Below are positions 13,000 through 18,113 of a DNA stretch of 64,000 nucleotides, one piece after another. The notes under the pieces are model-generated. The model was not told where the DNA came from, made no database searches, and saw only the letters and a program-made list of their open reading frames with translations. Source of the stretch: Patescibacteria group bacterium (GTDB lineage: Bacteria; Patescibacteriota; Patescibacteriia; UBA11705; DATKZF01); contig JBMORT010000006.1 of NCBI GenBank assembly GCA_049319825.1, positions 166,340 to 230,339 of the forward strand, read 5' to 3'. Position numbers and translations under genes: made by a program. The stretch's first letter is position 1. Every line of letters starts with the position of its first letter.

Positions 13000-13223
13000 A
13001 AATTTTGTATATATTAAATTTTAGCTGCTGTATACATTATATCAATTGGCAGGGAGGGAGACAATATCGTTTAAAATAAAAAAAGCCCAGAAGGCTTATT
13101 GGCTTGCCAGCCGTAGCTTCAGCGAAGGCTGGCTCGGGGGCAGGGATTTCCGCCTACGCCCTCGCTAGCTCGGGCTTCGGCGGACAGGCGAACCGGTTTA
13201 TCGTCGGGGTTCTCATCCCTGTA

Positions 13224-13277: not shown

Positions 13278-13351
13278 TGGCTCGGGGACAGGGATTCGAA
13301 CCCCGATAGCCAGGACCAAAACCTGGAGTCCTACCATTAGACGATCCCCGA
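13278..13351 (-). tRNA. tRNA-Gln (anticodon TTG), CCA encoded
   Basis: Hand-folded. Acceptor stem TCGGGGA/TCCCCGA, D-stem GTCT/GGAC, anticodon stem CCAGG/CCTGG, loop TTTTGGT, T-arm CGGGG-TTCGAAT-CCCTG, discriminator G and a 3' CCA. Length 74 nt. Confidence 0.85.
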
Positions 13352-13634
13352 ATGTAAGAAATTGGAAATTGGAAACTAGAAATTATAATTTTAAAAATTT
13401 CAAAAACTACAAATATTATACTGGATAAAGAAAGTTTTGTCAAACAATTTTAGCTTTACTTTTCCCTTCGTTTATAGTAAAATTAGACTTGATTATATTG
13501 TGATTTGGATTAAATTATTTAAATTTTCAATTGCGTGATGAGAAAAATTAATAAATAAAAATCTCATTGAAACGCTAACAAGAATAGCTAATGTTCTAAA
13601 TGTTGGCACTGATGATTTAATAAAATAAAAAAAC

Positions 13635-14387
13635 ATGGCAGAACTAACCACAATTGAAAAACAGATTCTTGAAAAGCTCTTTCAAATGGGCGGTGGTTAC
13701 GTTTTAAATTTTTCTGACAGAACAATGGGTGAATTTTTCAGAGACGATGTTGGACTAGATATTTACACTCAGAAATACAATTACGCAAGCGGCTCAAAAG
13801 CCAATCGTATGCGTGGTCTATGGTTAAAAGCAGACAATAAAACGGTAGGAAACTCTATATTAAAACTTATTGAATACATTGAAAGTCAAATTTTGATTGA
13901 TGAACTTTCCCGTGATGATTTTCCCGAAGATAGAATAAAGGCCGCCAAAGAGATAGTTGACAAATTGTTAGGGAAAAAGAGTAAGCCAAAAGATAGTAAA
14001 TCGAAAGCTACTTTTAAAAATGGCAATATTAACATTACTTTACAAAAAGATATTTTTGATCATGTCCAAAAATTATTGAATAGCGGGCATTATTTCAATG
14101 CAGTCGAAGAAGCATACAAAATTGTTAGAAAAAAACTAAAAGATATTACTGGAAAAGAAAAAGCGACGGACGCTTTTAACAGTTCAAATTATGAAAAAAT
14201 TTTTGGCCATCAGCCTGTAGAGCAAGCTGAGAAAGATTTTTTTGAGGGCGTAAAATTTTTACATATGTCTATTCAATTTTTACGAAATGAGAAAGCGCAT
14301 ACGCCAGCGCGTGATTTGGACAAAAATTTAGCAATTCATTATATATCGCTCGCCAGTTTAGCGTATGATTTAATCACTAGAAAGTGA
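13635..14387 (+). CDS. HEPN-domain protein, TIGR02391/Abi-like (putative abortive-infection RNase)
   Basis: The C-terminal domain carries the Rx4H HEPN motif (FLRNEKAHT) in a TIGR02391-like context (GHYFNAVEEAYKIVRKKL). It is the first gene of the AT-rich island. Confidence 0.6.
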   Translation: MAELTTIEKQILEKLFQMGGGYVLNFSDRTMGEFFRDDVGLDIYTQKYNYASGSKANRMRGLWLKADNKTVGNSILKLIEYIESQILIDELSRDDFPEDRIKAAKEIVDKLLGKKSKPKDSKSKATFKNGNINITLQKDIFDHVQKLLNSGHYFNAVEEAYKIVRKKLKDITGKEKATDAFNSSNYEKIFGHQPVEQAEKDFFEGVKFLHMSIQFLRNEKAHTPARDLDKNLAIHYISLASLAYDLITRK

Positions 14388-14393
14388 ATTATT

Positions 14394-15422
14394 ATGGCAC
14401 ATAAACACTTACACAAGGCAGGCCGTGCGAAGAATGATGAGTTTTATACCCAGCTCGTTGACATTGAAAAAGAGCTTAAATACTACAAAGAACAATTCCG
14501 TGGCAAGGTTGTGTACTGTAATTGCGATGATCCTTTTGAAAGTAATTTTTTCAAGTATTTCGCTGCCAATTTTAATGCATTAGGACTCAAGAAACTCATC
14601 ACAACGAGTTACAATAAATCACCGATTGCAGGTAGACAGTTGCCCTTGTTTGAAATGGAGGGGTTGAAATCTATAAAGCCTATAGACGCAGAGCCCTACA
14701 AAATTGAAATAAATGAAGTATCCGATATTAACAACGATGGCGCGATAAATCTCGAAGACGTTGAACAATTAATAAAGCATGAGAAAAACATCGCAACCCC
14801 CTTGCGTGGTAACGGTGATTTCCGCAGTGACGAGTGTATTGAGCTACTCAAGCAAGCCGATATAGTCGTGACTAACCCTCCATTTTCACTATTCCGTGAG
14901 TATGTCGCCCAGCTTGTGAAATATAAAAAAAAGTTTTTGATTATAGGTAATACAAATGCCCTAACTTATAAAGAGATTTTTAAATTAATTAAAGAGAATA
15001 AATTCCGCACTGGCTATACCAATTTTAATGTAGGTATGTTTTTTGTTGTACCAGACGATTGGGAACATTTTCACCATGTCGATAAAGATGGCAAAAAAAT
15101 TGCGCGAGTCTCAACATCATGCTGGTTTACAAATCTTGAAGTTGAAAAACACAAGGAAGATATCATTCTTTACAAAAAATATACACCCGAAGAGTATCCA
15201 AAATATGACAACTATAATGCAATCAATGTAAATAAATACACAGATATTCCCTATGATTACACTGGGTATATTGGCGTACCAATCACTTTTATCGATAAAT
15301 ATAATCCTGAACAGTTTGAAATAGTGAGATTTCGAAAAGGTAATGATGATAAAGACTTATCAATAAATGGAAAATATACCTATTTTAGAATTATTATAAA
15401 AAATAAGAAAGTTAAAAAATAA
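14394..15422 (+). CDS. DNA N6-adenine methyltransferase, EcoRI-methylase-like family
   Basis: N-terminal KNDEFYTQ...VVYCNCDDPFESNFFKYF and catalytic motif IV TNPPFS. The resemblance to M.EcoRI is recalled from memory, not searched. Confidence 0.7.
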   Translation: MAHKHLHKAGRAKNDEFYTQLVDIEKELKYYKEQFRGKVVYCNCDDPFESNFFKYFAANFNALGLKKLITTSYNKSPIAGRQLPLFEMEGLKSIKPIDAEPYKIEINEVSDINNDGAINLEDVEQLIKHEKNIATPLRGNGDFRSDECIELLKQADIVVTNPPFSLFREYVAQLVKYKKKFLIIGNTNALTYKEIFKLIKENKFRTGYTNFNVGMFFVVPDDWEHFHHVDKDGKKIARVSTSCWFTNLEVEKHKEDIILYKKYTPEEYPKYDNYNAINVNKYTDIPYDYTGYIGVPITFIDKYNPEQFEIVRFRKGNDDKDLSINGKYTYFRIIIKNKKVKK

Positions 15423-15423
15423 T

Positions 15424-16533
15424 ATGAAAATAGAGCTTCATCAAATTCCAATTGGCAAAGTCATCGCCGGTTACAAGGATAGCGCCGAAGAAGGTGTCGT
15501 GGCTTATGACGGTAAGCTTGATATTCGCCCAAAGTATCAGAGAGAATTTGTGTACAATGAAAAACAGCGCAATGCCGTGATTGAAACCGTTAAGCAAAAC
15601 TTCCCGCTCAACGTAATGTACTGGATGGTTCGCGAAGACGGTGGCTATGAAATGCTGGACGGTCAGCAACGTACCATCAGTATTGGGCAGTATGTGAATG
15701 GTGACTTCTCGCTCGAAAATCGTTTTTTCCATAATTTAACACCTGAAGAACAAGATCAGATTTTGGATTATGAATTAATGATTTACTTTTGTGAAGGTAC
15801 GGATAAGGAAAGATTAGATTGGTTTAAAACAATCAATATAGCCGGTGAAAAATTAACCGACCAAGAAATTCGTAATGCGGTTTACACAGGGCCGTGGCTT
15901 TCTGACGCTAAATTGAAGTTTAGCAAAACACAGTGTGCGGCATATCGTTTAGCGACCGACGGCGGAAAGTTAGTCAGCGGTTCTCCAATCCGTCAAGAAT
16001 ATTTAGAAGCCGCGCTTTCATGGATAAACAACGGCGAAGTTGCGGATTACATGGCGAAGCATCAGCACAACAAAAATGCTAATCAGTTGTGGGAATATTT
16101 CCAAGATGTCATTGCGTGGGTGCGTAAAACTTTTCCAAATTACCGAAAAGAAATGGCAAGCGTAAATTGGGGCGAATTATACAACAAATTCAAAAAAAAG
16201 AAGCTAAACGCCGAAAAACTAGAAGCCGAAATTGCCAAGTTAATGCAGGATGAGGATGTAACAAAAAAATCTGGCATATATCCTTATGTACTCACAGGAG
16301 AAGAAAAACACCTTTCTATTCGCGCGTTCACCGACAAAATGAAGCGGGAAGCATACGAGCGGCAAAAAGGTGTTTGCCCTTGGTGCAAAAAAGAGAAGAA
16401 AGAAAAACAAAAATGGGAAATTGAAGAAATGGAAGCCGACCATATTAAGCCTTGGCACGAGGGCGGAAAAACAACCGCAGAGAATTGCCAAATGTTATGC
16501 AAACAAGATAACCGAACTAAATCGGGGAAGTAA
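15424..16533 (+). CDS. DUF262 (ParB/GmrS-like, DGQQR motif) N-domain fused to a C-terminal HNH nuclease
   Basis: DGQQRT motif and a C-terminal CPWC...ADHIKPWHEGGKTTAENCQMLCKQDN HNH motif. The start is 2 nt after the methyltransferase stop. Confidence 0.8.
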   Translation: MKIELHQIPIGKVIAGYKDSAEEGVVAYDGKLDIRPKYQREFVYNEKQRNAVIETVKQNFPLNVMYWMVREDGGYEMLDGQQRTISIGQYVNGDFSLENRFFHNLTPEEQDQILDYELMIYFCEGTDKERLDWFKTINIAGEKLTDQEIRNAVYTGPWLSDAKLKFSKTQCAAYRLATDGGKLVSGSPIRQEYLEAALSWINNGEVADYMAKHQHNKNANQLWEYFQDVIAWVRKTFPNYRKEMASVNWGELYNKFKKKKLNAEKLEAEIAKLMQDEDVTKKSGIYPYVLTGEEKHLSIRAFTDKMKREAYERQKGVCPWCKKEKKEKQKWEIEEMEADHIKPWHEGGKTTAENCQMLCKQDNRTKSGK

Positions 16534-16640
16534 AAATTGGAATAGGGTGTGTATAATTTTCTTTACATGACTCTTGACAAAAAATTCTACATCGCTTACA
16601 ATGGAGGTGTAAGTATTATTAAATAATTTCCATTAACACT

Positions 16641-16853
16641 ATGGATAGAAAACGAAAAGCAGACCACGAAAAAATAAAGAAAATTTTAGAAAAACGTGGT
16701 TATAAAAACGGTGAACCACCACGTGGATATGAGGTGCACCACATCAAACCACTTGCAGAAGGCGGAAAGGATACACCTAAAAATATTCGGGTAATAAAAA
16801 TAATAAAACACAAACAAATACACGCTAATCGTAAAGAAAGAAGTAAAATTTAA
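16641..16853 (+). CDS. mini HNH endonuclease (70 aa)
   Basis: The motif EVHHIKPLAEGGKDTPKNIRV...H resembles the HNH core of the upstream gene (HIKP-EGGK-T--N). Confidence 0.6.
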   Translation: MDRKRKADHEKIKKILEKRGYKNGEPPRGYEVHHIKPLAEGGKDTPKNIRVIKIIKHKQIHANRKERSKI

Positions 16854-16855
16854 TT

Positions 16856-17623
16856 ATGTTTGGAAAATTTATCCAACATCAACGTACCAAGCGAAATATG
16901 ACACAGGAATATCTTGCGTCAGAGCTTGATATGTCTCGTCCCACTTATTTACAGATTGAACGCGGGGAGCGAGAGCTTACGATTTCCGAAGCAAAAAAGC
17001 TGGCGGCTCTTTTTGACATGCCGCTTGAAAATTTTCTTGCTGCCAGAGAACCAAAACGAAGTGTTGCCATTGAAAAAGAATCGGTAAAAAAAACTGAAGA
17101 CTTGCAGATTCGCGTTACAGAAAAAAACCTTGATAAATTCAAGCAGGTTTTGCTTTATGTTTTGAATAAGGTTGGTGGCAAGCCAAATGTTGGTGAAACA
17201 GTTTTGCATAAACTTCTTTATTTTATCGATTTTGACTACTACGAGAAGTTTGAAGAAAACTTAATGGGTGCAACTTATATCAAAAATCATCACGGTCCCA
17301 CTTCTATCGAGCTCGGCACAATTATAGAGGAAATGCAGACGCAGGGTGAGTTAGAAGCTGTAAAGAGTCAGTATTTTAAGTATTTACAAAAAAAGTATCT
17401 GCCGCGAAAACGTCCTAATCTCGATATTCTTTCCGCGCGAGAAATTGAGCACATTGATGATGTACTTGCTCGTCTTTCAGACAAAAATGCTGCGGAAATA
17501 GAAAATTATTCACACGAGGACATTCCTTGGAAATCTGCGCAGGACGGCAAGCCGCTTTCTTACGAGAGCGTTTTCTACCGCGACGAGCGATACTCCGTAA
17601 GAAACTATGACGATAAACTTTAA
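16856..17623 (+). CDS. HTH-XRE + Panacea/SocA (DUF4065) domain protein, PanA-type antitoxin candidate
   Basis: N-terminal XRE HTH (MTQEYLASELDMSRPTYLQIERGER). Panacea-like core VGGKPNVGETVLHKLLYFIDFDYYEKFEENLMGATYIKNHHGP. Starts 3 nt after the mini-HNH stop. Confidence 0.65.
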   Translation: MFGKFIQHQRTKRNMTQEYLASELDMSRPTYLQIERGERELTISEAKKLAALFDMPLENFLAAREPKRSVAIEKESVKKTEDLQIRVTEKNLDKFKQVLLYVLNKVGGKPNVGETVLHKLLYFIDFDYYEKFEENLMGATYIKNHHGPTSIELGTIIEEMQTQGELEAVKSQYFKYLQKKYLPRKRPNLDILSAREIEHIDDVLARLSDKNAAEIENYSHEDIPWKSAQDGKPLSYESVFYRDERYSVRNYDDKL

Positions 17624-17951
17624 TGAGCTTCCCGAATTTCAAAAAGAATTCAAGCGGCTTGGCAAAAAATATAAATCTCTCCCCGATGACTTGCAAGAAT
17701 TCTGCAATGTGGTTTCTGTTGTTCCGCTTGGCAATAGTAAACATTTTAACATCATTACCCAAACTAAACTTTTTTGCATTATAAAAGCTCGCTTGTTCTG
17801 TAGATATTTGAAAGGAACCTCGCTCCGCATTATTTATTCTTATTTTGAGCAGAAACAATGTATTGAATTTATTGAATTATATTTTAAAGGTGATAAAGAA
17901 ACCGAAGATCGTGATAGAATAAAAGAATATTTGAAAAATAATCAGAACTAA
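17607..17951 (+). CDS. RelE/ParE-superfamily toxin-like protein
   Basis: 114 aa with a ...KARLFCRYLKGTSLRIIYSYFEQKQCIEFIELYFKGDK pattern. It overlaps the Panacea gene by 17 nt. Confidence 0.45.
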   Translation: MTINFNELPEFQKEFKRLGKKYKSLPDDLQEFCNVVSVVPLGNSKHFNIITQTKLFCIIKARLFCRYLKGTSLRIIYSYFEQKQCIEFIELYFKGDKETEDRDRIKEYLKNNQN

Positions 17952-18113
17952 CCCCACCCACCACCCTATAATTTTGTAGCCCCGCAAAAAAATCAGATCG
18001 CTCCCCTGCAGTCTTTTTTCATTTGTAAAAGTAAATCAACAGAAACTTATCTCGGCTTGTCTCGCTTGTTCAGTATGCTATAATCAAATAGCCTAATCAT
18101 TAACAAAAAATTT

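What the first reader, a model, noticed from the sequence alone, without database searches (positions are those of the whole stretch)
14394..16533. EcoRI-family adenine methyltransferase translationally coupled to a DUF262(ParB/GmrS-like)-HNH nuclease
The methyltransferase stop (15420-15422) and the nuclease ATG (15424) are 1 nt apart, implying a single functional unit.

DUF262-containing nucleases are best known from modification-DEPENDENT type IV systems (GmrSD-like). Those are normally not paired with a methyltransferase. Here the nuclease instead carries a classical McrA-type HNH and sits directly behind an N6A methyltransferase with the NPPF motif.

This could be an undescribed type II-like R-M architecture in which the DUF262 NTPase-like domain regulates an HNH cleavage module. 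Alternatively, the methyltransferase may protect self-DNA from a differently targeted nuclease.
Basis: partly seen in the sequence, partly recalled or inferred. Interest (0 to 1): 0.7.

Follow-up and report, generated by a model that had tools for sequence, protein, structure and literature searches.

The report
EcoRI-type methylase with ParB-HNH nuclease
This is an intact two-gene restriction-modification cassette, a close relative of the EcoRI methylase followed by a nuclease built from a ParB-like nucleotide-binding domain and an HNH cutter; it is common and already catalogued as a type II system, but I found no published biochemistry for it.

Summary
ORF 14394-15422 is an EcoRI-family N6-adenine methyltransferase, 51% identical to M.EcoRI itself. 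ORF 15424-16533 is a DUF262 (ParB-like) plus classical HNH nuclease that starts 1 nt after the methylase stop codon.

The pairing is not chance:
- 76 of 77 evaluable genome loci from many phyla carry the methylase directly upstream. So do plasmids and a cultured phage, down to 36% nuclease identity.
- 44 of 76 loci have the same 1-nt junction.
- The DGQQR and HNH catalytic residues are conserved, and both genes are under strong purifying selection.
- No third gene is conserved.

The most likely function is a methylation-blocked (type II-like) restriction system, probably nucleotide-regulated, with a GAATTC-like target. The target could not be established.

"Undescribed" overstates the case. 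A REBASE-derived PADLOC "type II REase" profile matches the nuclease end to end. However, I found no paper that characterises this architecture, and a 2025 survey still lists ParB-HNH fusions as novel. Its closest solved relatives (BrxU, SspE, DndI) all sense DNA modification rather than being blocked by it.

Verdict: a real, ordinary member of a catalogued family whose mechanism is unstudied. Interest is moderate.

The parts
13545..13628 (+). Truncated C-terminal remnant of a small XRE-type HTH (…NLIETLTRIANVLNVGTDDLIK*), homologous to the controller-like HTH found intact upstream of the methylase in six other loci
   Evidence: The translation is preceded by stop codons. Intact 68-95 aa homologs lie 15-23 nt upstream of the methylase in L010, L025, L036, L044, L045 and L083. 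They match PADLOC Control_protein models at E 1e-15 to 1e-8.
13635..14387 (+). Hypoth_Ymh / TIGR02391-family gene (250 aa), 6 nt upstream of the methylase and probably co-transcribed; an accessory gene, not a core part
   Evidence: Pfam PF09509 E 2e-15. TIGR02391 E 4e-28. The same gene at 80-81% identity lies upstream of the methylase only in L042 and L063. No terminator-like site lies between it and the methylase on the + strand.
14394..15422 (+). EcoRI-family gamma-type N6-adenine DNA methyltransferase (342 aa). NPPF at 14874-14885. Residues ~81-140 are an insertion absent from M.EcoRI.
   Evidence: Pfam PF13651 E 3e-136. PADLOC MTase_II E 4.5e-123. 51% identity to M.EcoRI from E. coli plasmid NZ_OW967970, where it sits beside the annotated R.EcoRI gene. 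Block conservation.
15420..15426 (+). Translational-coupling junction: TAA, T, ATG
   Evidence: Sequence. The identical 1-nt spacing occurs in 44 of 76 related loci, 13 more overlap by 1-11 nt, and 7 have 2-9 nt.
15424..16533 (+). DUF262(ParB-like)-helical-HNH nuclease (369 aa), the predicted restriction subunit
15508..15903 (+). ParB/Srx-fold DUF262 domain (residues ~29-160). Invariant Q39-R40, D79-G80-Q-Q-R83 (DGQQR at 15658-15672), N138, Q147-E148, N151. Predicted NTP-binding pocket.
   Evidence: Invariant columns in alignment A1. Foldseek top hits are the CTP/CDP-bound ParB and Noc N-domains.
15904..16350 (+). All-helical middle region (residues ~161-309). Candidate DNA-recognition or dimerisation element. 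No specific fold match.
   Evidence: Secondary structure of the model. Conserved R190, Q191, W200, W232, F237, W249. 73-85% per-block conservation among close homologs.
16375..16524 (+). Classical ββα-Me HNH nuclease domain (residues 318-367). C318-x2-C321, D339-H340 (16438-16443), N354, C359, N365.
   Evidence: PF01844 E 4e-11. C318 and N354 invariant; D339, H340 and C359 conserved in at least 90%. Structural matches to Gme-HNH, McrA and Cas9-HNH.
13352..18050 (.). Low-GC islet (GC 0.32-0.41 against 0.45-0.51 in the flanks) next to tRNA-Gln. It holds the R-M cassette plus a separate mini-HNH / Panacea toxin-antitoxin operon.
   Evidence: Composition profile. tRNA-Gln at 13278-13351 on the minus strand. 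Neighbour domains. Promoter-like site TTGACA-17-TACAAT at 16574-16602, which separates the two operons.

Best explanation
This is a two-gene, methylation-blocked (type II-like) restriction-modification cassette.

The methylase is translated first. It is an EcoRI-family N6-adenine enzyme and most likely marks GAATTC or a closely related AATT-core site. The nuclease is translationally coupled to it, so it is only made together with its antidote. It cuts DNA that lacks the mark, using its C-terminal zinc-stabilised HNH active site.

The N-terminal ParB-like DUF262 domain, with an intact DGQQR pocket, most likely binds a nucleotide triphosphate and gates dimerisation or activation of the nuclease, as in its nearest solved relatives BrxU, GmrSD and SspE. 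The helical middle region probably provides DNA contacts.

Shown here: the domain identities, intact catalytic motifs, near-universal synteny and coupling, purifying selection, mobility as a two-gene unit, and defence-island and plasmid contexts.

Inferred: that methylation protects against the nuclease, the target sequence, and the nucleotide dependence.
For: 1. PADLOC REase_II and MTase_II profiles match both proteins end to end.
2. The methylase lies directly upstream of the nuclease in 76 of 77 evaluable genome loci across Patescibacteria, Omnitrophota, Gammaproteobacteria, Bdellovibrionales, Bacteroidota, Chloroflexi, Atribacterota and an archaeon. The same is seen on about 20 plasmids from Firmicutes, Actinobacteria and Proteobacteria, and in Flavobacterium phage laban6-1 at 36% nuclease identity.
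3. The reciprocal test holds: 4 of 5 close methylase homologs on long contigs have the nuclease downstream.
4. The gene order is methylase first, with a 1-nt or overlapping junction in 57 of 76 loci.
5. Catalytic and nucleotide-pocket residues are conserved across representatives at 35-57% identity.
6. Four-fold degenerate sites are nearly saturated (0.39 identity against 0.25 random) while the protein stays 82% identical. GC3 tracks host GC (r 0.53). This indicates long-term purifying selection, not decay.
7. No third gene is conserved. A controller-like HTH lies directly upstream in six loci. Serine recombinases, AbiE, SIR2-HerA and toxin-antitoxin neighbours are typical of mobile defence cassettes.
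8. The methylase is 51% identical to M.EcoRI, and 65-75% identical over its last ~80 residues. In an NJ tree M.EcoRI branches among methylases partnered with DUF262-HNH nucleases.
Against: - No biochemical or genetic data for any family member were found.
- The closest solved structures (BrxU, SspE, DndI) are modification-dependent or modification-sensing, the opposite polarity.
- One locus (L075) has an intact nuclease with no methylase in 3.3 kb upstream.
- One close methylase homolog is followed by a reverse transcriptase instead of the nuclease.
- Nuclease and methylase divergences are only weakly correlated (r 0.17), and the nuclease is the more conserved partner, which is atypical for R-M pairs.
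- No specific site avoidance was seen. GAATTC is at 0.77 of expectation in 788 kb of host flanks, but unrelated palindromes are at 0.63-0.69. In the window itself GAATTC is 40 observed against 35 expected.
- If the enzyme needs NTP, it would not fit the strict type II definition.
Confidence: 0.7

Rival explanations
1. The nuclease is a type IV-like, modification-dependent enzyme, like GmrSD, BrxU or SspE, that attacks modified phage DNA. The adjacent methylase has a separate role, such as an independent epigenetic mark or protection against some other nuclease.
Against: A modification-dependent nuclease has no need for an obligately coupled methylase. Yet the pair stays together, methylase first and usually translationally coupled, from 36% to 88% nuclease identity in chromosomes, plasmids and a phage. 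The C-terminal domain is a classical HNH (PF01844), not the DUF1524 domain of GmrSD-family enzymes. The protein is about 200 residues shorter than BrxU or SspE.
Confidence: 0.1
2. The DUF262-HNH gene is a free-standing homing or selfish endonuclease that spreads by cutting nuclease-less alleles of the methylase locus. The methylase is a passenger or a target, not a protective partner.
For: HNH genes are common homing endonucleases near phage methylases. The junction sequence is strikingly uniform. The pair is highly mobile across phyla. One methylase homolog lacks the nuclease.
Against: Flanking genes differ in nearly every locus, and both genes always move together, so there is no conserved host gene that carries the nuclease variably. 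Methylases without the nuclease are the minority in the sample (1 of 5). The ParB-like NTP-binding domain and the PADLOC REase_II match are not features of known homing HNH enzymes.
Confidence: 0.05
3. The nuclease is an inactive or decaying remnant, or the adjacency is coincidental.
For: Nothing beyond the absence of experimental data.
Against: The ORFs are full length (361-378 aa) in all 72 loci analysed. Catalytic residues are conserved. Synonymous sites are saturated while the protein stays 82% identical. The model is confident, pLDDT 92. 76 of 77 loci are syntenic.
Confidence: 0.01

Closest known systems
EcoRI restriction-modification system (M.EcoRI + R.EcoRI, GAATTC)
   Same: The methylase belongs to the same Pfam family and is 51% identical to M.EcoRI over its full length, with the same NPPF motif and a highly similar C-terminal ~80 residues. 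Both are two-gene mobile cassettes found on small plasmids.
   Different: The nuclease is unrelated to R.EcoRI, which is a PD-(D/E)XK enzyme of 277 aa. Here it is a ParB-like plus HNH protein of 369 aa. The gene order is reversed: methylase then nuclease here, nuclease then methylase in EcoRI. The methylase carries a ~25-60-residue insertion. The target sequence is not established.
GmrSD-family type IV restriction enzymes (GmrSD, Eco94GmrSD, BrxU) and SspE/DndI
   Different: Those enzymes carry DUF1524 rather than PF01844 HNH, are 560-600 aa long, act alone, and cut or sense modified DNA (5hmC, glucosyl-hmC, 5mC, phosphorothioate). This protein is 369 aa, has a Zn-ribbon classical HNH, and is obligately paired with a methylase. 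That pairing implies the opposite polarity: blocked by modification.
HNH-type type II restriction enzymes (e.g. KpnI, Hpy99I, PacI, MnlI), recalled from the type II literature
   Same: A ββα-Me HNH catalytic module paired with a cognate methylase. PADLOC files this family under REase_II.
   Different: The fold survey of type II enzymes that I searched contains no mention of a ParB or sulfiredoxin fold. A nucleotide requirement would be unusual for type II.
ParB-CTPase fold proteins (ParB, Noc, KorB)
   Same: Foldseek's top hits for the N-terminal half are CTP/CDP-bound ParB and Noc N-domains (probability 0.97). The arginine-containing P-motif equivalent (DGQQR) is invariant.
   Different: There is no ParB HTH or C-terminal dimerisation domain, and no ParA or parS context. 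The 2025 survey lists ParB-HNH fusions as novel and did not characterise them.

Membership tests
Type II restriction-modification system | Separate, adjacent methyltransferase and endonuclease genes that are inherited together | tested here: met
   76 of 77 evaluable genome loci, about 20 plasmids and one phage. Reciprocal test 4 of 5. No conserved third gene.
Type II restriction-modification system | Match to curated or REBASE-derived type II REase and MTase profiles | tested here: met
   PADLOC PDLC03418 REase_II, residues 1-369 against profile 1-372 of 372, E 2.4e-131. PDLC03297 MTase_II, E 4.5e-123. I could not establish whether that profile rests on an experimentally characterised enzyme.
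Type II restriction-modification system | Endonuclease with an intact catalytic site | tested here: met
   C318 and N354 invariant; D339-H340 and C359 conserved in at least 90% of 42 representatives.
Type II restriction-modification system | Cleavage at or near a defined short sequence, blocked by the cognate methylation, needing Mg2+ only (no NTP) | not testable with these tools
   Needs biochemistry. The conserved ParB-like NTP pocket suggests the 'no NTP' clause may fail.
Type II restriction-modification system | Controller (C) protein upstream; optional, present in a subset of type II systems | tested here: not met
   The window holds only a truncated remnant at 13545-13628. Intact controller-like HTHs occur in six other loci.
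EcoRI-family N6-adenine methyltransferases (Pfam PF13651) | Full-length match above the gathering threshold, with the NPPF catalytic motif | tested here: met
   454.7 bits against a 26.4-bit cut-off, profile 2-335 of 345. NPPF at residues 161-164. 51% identity to M.EcoRI.
EcoRI-family N6-adenine methyltransferases (Pfam PF13651) | GAATTC specificity | tested here: inconclusive
   51% identity is below thresholds used for motif transfer (80%). Site-avoidance analysis was non-specific. The NJ placement of M.EcoRI among partner methylases is suggestive only.
GmrSD family (type IV) | N-terminal DUF262 domain with the DGQQR motif | tested here: met
GmrSD family (type IV) | C-terminal DUF1524 (PF07510) nuclease domain | tested here: not met
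   No PF07510 hit. The C-terminus is PF01844 HNH with a CxxC zinc ribbon.
GmrSD family (type IV) | Stand-alone, modification-dependent enzyme without a cognate methylase | tested here: not met
   It is obligately paired with a methylase. Modification dependence itself cannot be tested here.
McrA-type HNH nucleases (Pfam PF01844) | HNH ββα-Me motif above the gathering threshold | tested here: met

The most novel reading that the evidence does not exclude
The nuclease is the first modification-blocked member of the DUF262 sensor-nuclease superfamily. It would be a nucleotide-gated, ParB-like switch that reads the absence of N6-methyladenine at GAATTC-like sites and then licenses a non-specific or distal HNH cut. 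That would make it a mechanistically new subtype between type II and the NTP-dependent types, rather than a plain sequence-specific type IIP enzyme. It would also make the DUF262-HNH protein, not R.EcoRI, the predominant natural partner of the EcoRI methylase family.
Probability: 0.2. Interest if true: 0.7.

Novelty: new member of a known kind. Interest (0 to 1): 0.4.

Why it matters
DUF262 nucleases are currently understood only as modification-dependent or modification-sensing defence enzymes. A very large, strongly conserved branch that is wired to a protective methylase would show that the same ParB-like sensor can work with the opposite polarity.

It may also give a nucleotide-regulated restriction enzyme, possibly an EcoRI iso- or neoschizomer with a different fold.

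The family is abundant in candidate-phyla bacteria and is present on plasmids of clinical and food bacteria, including next to optrA. It is therefore probably a widespread barrier to gene transfer. For genome annotation, "DUF262 domain-containing protein" directly after an EcoRI-family methylase can be read as a restriction subunit.

Tried and rejected
1. **Target-site inference from palindrome avoidance.** In the window, only mild and common TGCA/GGCC depletion; GAATTC 40 observed against 35 expected. In 788 kb of pooled host flanks, GAATTC is at 0.77, but many unrelated palindromes are at 0.63-0.69 and AATT is at 1.00. Uninformative, except that a bare AATT target looks unlikely.

2. **Literature searches** for a characterised DUF262-HNH type II enzyme or for the Pfam family name found nothing. 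The Paracoccus 'HNH R-M' paper concerns a 16-kDa enzyme paired with a GANTC methylase and is unrelated. The H. pylori and Halobacteria papers were irrelevant.

3. **Provenance of the PADLOC model.** The PADLOC papers cite REBASE but do not say whether the REase_II model rests on a characterised enzyme.

4. **Source names** of divergent cluster members: only 'HNH endonuclease'.

5. **PDB sequence search.** No solved homolog of either protein beyond weak HNH hits.

6. **Tool limits.** I controlled for this with the reciprocal methylase search. The AFDB50 fold library was unavailable.

7. **"Nuclease more conserved than methylase" as a sign of mismatched partners.** Largely explained by two hypervariable methylase segments, residues 81-140 and 201-260. 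The remaining methylase blocks are 0.76-0.93 conserved.

8. **tRNA-bounded integrative island.** The only tRNA-end repeat lies on the far side of the tRNA.
Full report
**Observation**

ORF 14394-15422 (+, 342 aa) ends in TAA at 15420-15422. One base later, ORF 15424-16533 (+, 369 aa) begins with ATG.

The first ORF is a full-length EcoRI_methylase (PF13651, E 3e-136), with NPPF at residues 161-164. The second carries GmrSD_N/DUF262 at residues 34-154 and a classical HNH (PF01844) at residues 318-367. NCBIfam has no specific model for either protein. The exact proteins are already deposited from a 365-kb Patescibacteria metagenome-assembled contig. They are named only "adenine-specific methyltransferase EcoRI family protein" and "HNH endonuclease family protein".

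**Context in the window**

The pair sits in a low-GC islet, about 13.35-18.05 kb, with GC 0.32-0.41 against 0.45-0.51 in the flanks. The islet is beside tRNA-Gln at 13278-13351 on the minus strand.

Six bases upstream of the methylase is a Hypoth_Ymh/TIGR02391 gene (13635-14387). Upstream of that is a truncated remnant of a small XRE-type HTH (13545-13628).

Downstream, a strong promoter-like site (TTGACA-17-TACAAT, 16574-16602) heads a separate operon. It holds a 70-aa mini-HNH, an HTH-Panacea antitoxin and an overlapping 114-aa ORF.

**Is the pairing real?**

I fetched 80 genome loci encoding nucleases 77-88% identical to this one. They come from many classes of Patescibacteria and from Saccharibacteria, Omnitrophota, Gammaproteobacteria, Bdellovibrionales, Bacteroidota, Anaerolineae, Atribacterota, Endomicrobiales and an archaeon.

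- An EcoRI-family methylase lies upstream on the same strand in 76 of them. Three of the four exceptions have less than 1 kb of upstream sequence.
- The junction is exactly 1 nt (TAAnATG) in 44 of 76 loci, overlaps by 1-11 nt in 13, and is 2-9 nt in 7.
- The same arrangement is annotated on about 20 plasmids of Firmicutes, Actinobacteria, Proteobacteria and Bacteroidota at 37-60% nuclease identity.
- It is also present in cultured Flavobacterium phage vB_FspS_laban6-1 at 36% identity, with a 4-nt overlap.
- In the reverse direction, I started from five close methylase homologs on long contigs. Four have the nuclease downstream. The fifth is followed by a reverse transcriptase.
- One locus, L075, has an intact nuclease directly after host serS and a NYN fragment, with no methylase.

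No third gene is conserved. The commonest neighbours each occur in at most 7 of 81 loci. They are a small XRE HTH 15-23 nt upstream of the methylase, serine recombinases, T5orf172 and Ymh. The HTH matches R-M controller-protein profiles at E 1e-15 to 1e-8. So the unit is the two-gene pair, it is mobile, and it lands in defence-island-like neighbourhoods with AbiEii, SIR2-HerA, Fic and Panacea toxin-antitoxin genes.

**Is the nuclease alive?**

In 42 representatives at 35-57% identity, these residues are invariant: Q39, R40, D79, G80, R83 (the DGQQR motif), N138, Q147, E148, N151, C318, G348 and N354. D339, H340 and C359 are conserved in at least 90%.

All 72 close homologs analysed are full length at 361-378 aa. 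Four-fold degenerate sites are almost saturated, at 0.39 identity against 0.25 expected at random. Yet the proteins remain 82% identical, and GC3 tracks the GC of the host flanks (r 0.53 for the nuclease, 0.59 for the methylase). This means long residence and strong purifying selection, not a recent sweep or decay.

**Structure**

An AlphaFold2 model built on the alignment is confident, with mean pLDDT 92.

- Foldseek aligns the N-terminal half with the CTP/CDP-bound ParB and Noc N-domains, and the C-terminus with Gme-HNH and McrA.
- No solved protein shares the whole architecture.
- Residues 161-309 form a helical region without a specific match.

**The methylase**

It is 51% identical to M.EcoRI itself, taken from a small E. 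coli plasmid where it sits next to the annotated R.EcoRI gene. It differs mainly in two places. One is an insertion at residues ~81-140, absent from M.EcoRI, that contains a D-x-N-x-D-G-x-I loop. The other is a variable block at 201-260. The last ~80 residues are 65-75% identical to M.EcoRI.

In a simple NJ tree, M.EcoRI branches among methylases whose partners are DUF262-HNH nucleases. The Flavobacterium-phage, Ligilactobacillus and Aeromonas methylases are more distant from the window's methylase than M.EcoRI is. The rooting is uncertain. Even so, the picture is of one methylase family whose predominant partner in nature is the DUF262-HNH protein, with R.EcoRI as the partner in one enterobacterial plasmid lineage.

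This makes GAATTC or a close relative the best guess for the target, but it is only a guess. The site-avoidance analyses were not discriminating.

**Unequal conservation of the two genes**

The nuclease is more conserved than the methylase. Pairwise means are 82% against 64%, and the nuclease is the more conserved partner in 99% of pairs. The divergences correlate weakly (r 0.17).

Because the loci were chosen by nuclease similarity, I ran the reciprocal search. The 120 best methylase hits fall to about 70% identity, where the 120 best nuclease hits stay at or above 82%. Most of the difference comes from the two hypervariable methylase segments. The nuclease is uniformly conserved except for a loop inside the HNH zinc ribbon. 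That argues for a single specificity across this clade.

**Cargo between the two genes**

The position between methylase and nuclease is a recurrent insertion point. Twelve of 76 loci carry 0.4-1.9 kb of unrelated cargo there, including T5orf172, RhuM-like, DUF2130-like, ATPase and membrane proteins. L001 and L095 also carry inserts. An Enterococcus plasmid has optrA between the methylase and a nuclease fragment at the locus end.

**Interpretation**

The best-supported reading is a methylation-blocked restriction-modification cassette (confidence about 0.7). The methylase comes first, and translational coupling ensures that no nuclease is made without it. The ParB-like domain with its intact pocket probably makes the enzyme nucleotide-regulated, by analogy with BrxU, GmrSD and SspE. 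This is inference only.

The main rival is a type IV-like, modification-dependent nuclease with a functionally independent methylase. It is favoured only by structural kinship and a few exceptions (L075, L092). It does not explain the near-obligate coupling. A homing-endonuclease reading and a remnant reading are poorly supported or refuted.

**Known or new?**

PADLOC's REBASE-derived "REase_II" profile PDLC03418 matches the nuclease end to end (E 2e-131), and "MTase_II" matches the methylase.

On the other hand:
- I found no paper that characterises a DUF262-HNH restriction enzyme or links it to EcoRI-family methylases.
- Reviews treat DUF262 only under type IV and phosphorothioate-sensing systems.
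- A December 2025 survey of the ParB-CTPase fold lists ParB-HNH fusions as novel and uncharacterised.
- I could not determine whether the PADLOC profile rests on an experimentally characterised enzyme.

It is not a GmrSD-family member. It lacks DUF1524 and is not stand-alone.

**Verdict**

This is an ordinary, intact member of a very large, catalogued R-M family whose mechanism is unstudied. I rate it a new member of a known kind, with interest about 0.4.

The most novel reading not excluded has probability about 0.2. In it, the enzyme is a nucleotide-gated, methylation-blocked ParB-like switch rather than a plain type IIP enzyme, which would merit about 0.7.

Noticed in passing
window 16641-17951 (promoter-like site at 16574-16602): A separate three-ORF operon directly after the nuclease. 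It holds a 70-aa mini-HNH without zinc cysteines (16641-16853), an HTH-Panacea (PanA-type) antitoxin (16856-17623), and an overlapping 114-aa ORF with no family match (17607-17951) that is probably the toxin. The PanA plus 114-aa pair recurs downstream of the nuclease in L069 at 55-57% identity. L075 has a distantly related (24% identity) HTH-Panacea gene followed by an unannotated 132-aa ORF.
   Followed up: partly
window 13635-14387; L042 3130-3876; L063 523-1269: A Hypoth_Ymh/TIGR02391 gene lies 6 nt upstream of the methylase. The same gene at 80-81% identity is upstream of the methylase in only two other loci. It is an occasional accessory of the cassette, with unknown role.
   Followed up: partly
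window 13545-13628: A truncated C-terminal remnant of an XRE-type HTH, homologous to intact controller-like HTHs found 15-23 nt upstream of the methylase in six other loci. This suggests the cassette was once C-protein regulated, before truncation or the Ymh insertion.
   Followed up: yes
window ~14634-14813 (methylase residues ~81-140): A variable insertion absent from M.EcoRI. It contains DINNDGAINLED, an EF-hand/dockerin-like calcium-loop motif, with weak PDB hits to dockerin modules. It is one of two hypervariable methylase segments; the other is residues 201-260.
   Followed up: partly
L015, L024, L026, L030, L035, L038, L048, L051, L058, L072, L081, L086, L001, L095, L008 (between methylase and nuclease): The methylase-nuclease intergenic position is a recurrent insertion hot spot. 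It carries 0.4-2.6 kb of unrelated cargo: T5orf172/MUG113, RhuM-like, DUF2130-like, an ATPase, membrane proteins, an Rv1289-family gene and, on an Enterococcus hirae plasmid, the optrA resistance gene.
   Followed up: partly
L092 3501-6095 and L093 1583-4177: A methylase 77% identical to the window's is followed, 12 nt downstream, by a 516-aa reverse transcriptase (RVT_1) instead of the nuclease, and is flanked by Fic genes. This is either replacement of the restriction gene or a different methylase-linked system.
   Followed up: no
window 13130-13148 against 13278-13296: A 19-nt copy (95% identical) of the T-arm/acceptor 3' end of tRNA-Gln lies about 130 nt beyond the tRNA's 3' end. It looks like an old att scar from an integrative element, on the opposite side of the tRNA from the R-M islet.
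   Followed up: partly
L001 7110-9965; L002 1244-3787: A large ORF (951 and 848 aa) with no Pfam match starts 2 nt after the nuclease stop in two loci. It may be an additional lineage-specific component.
   Followed up: no
L075 3305-4396: An intact 363-aa nuclease sits directly after host serS and a truncated NYN gene, with no methylase in 3.3 kb upstream. It is the only solitary nuclease among 77 evaluable loci. The methylase may lie elsewhere in that genome.
   Followed up: partly
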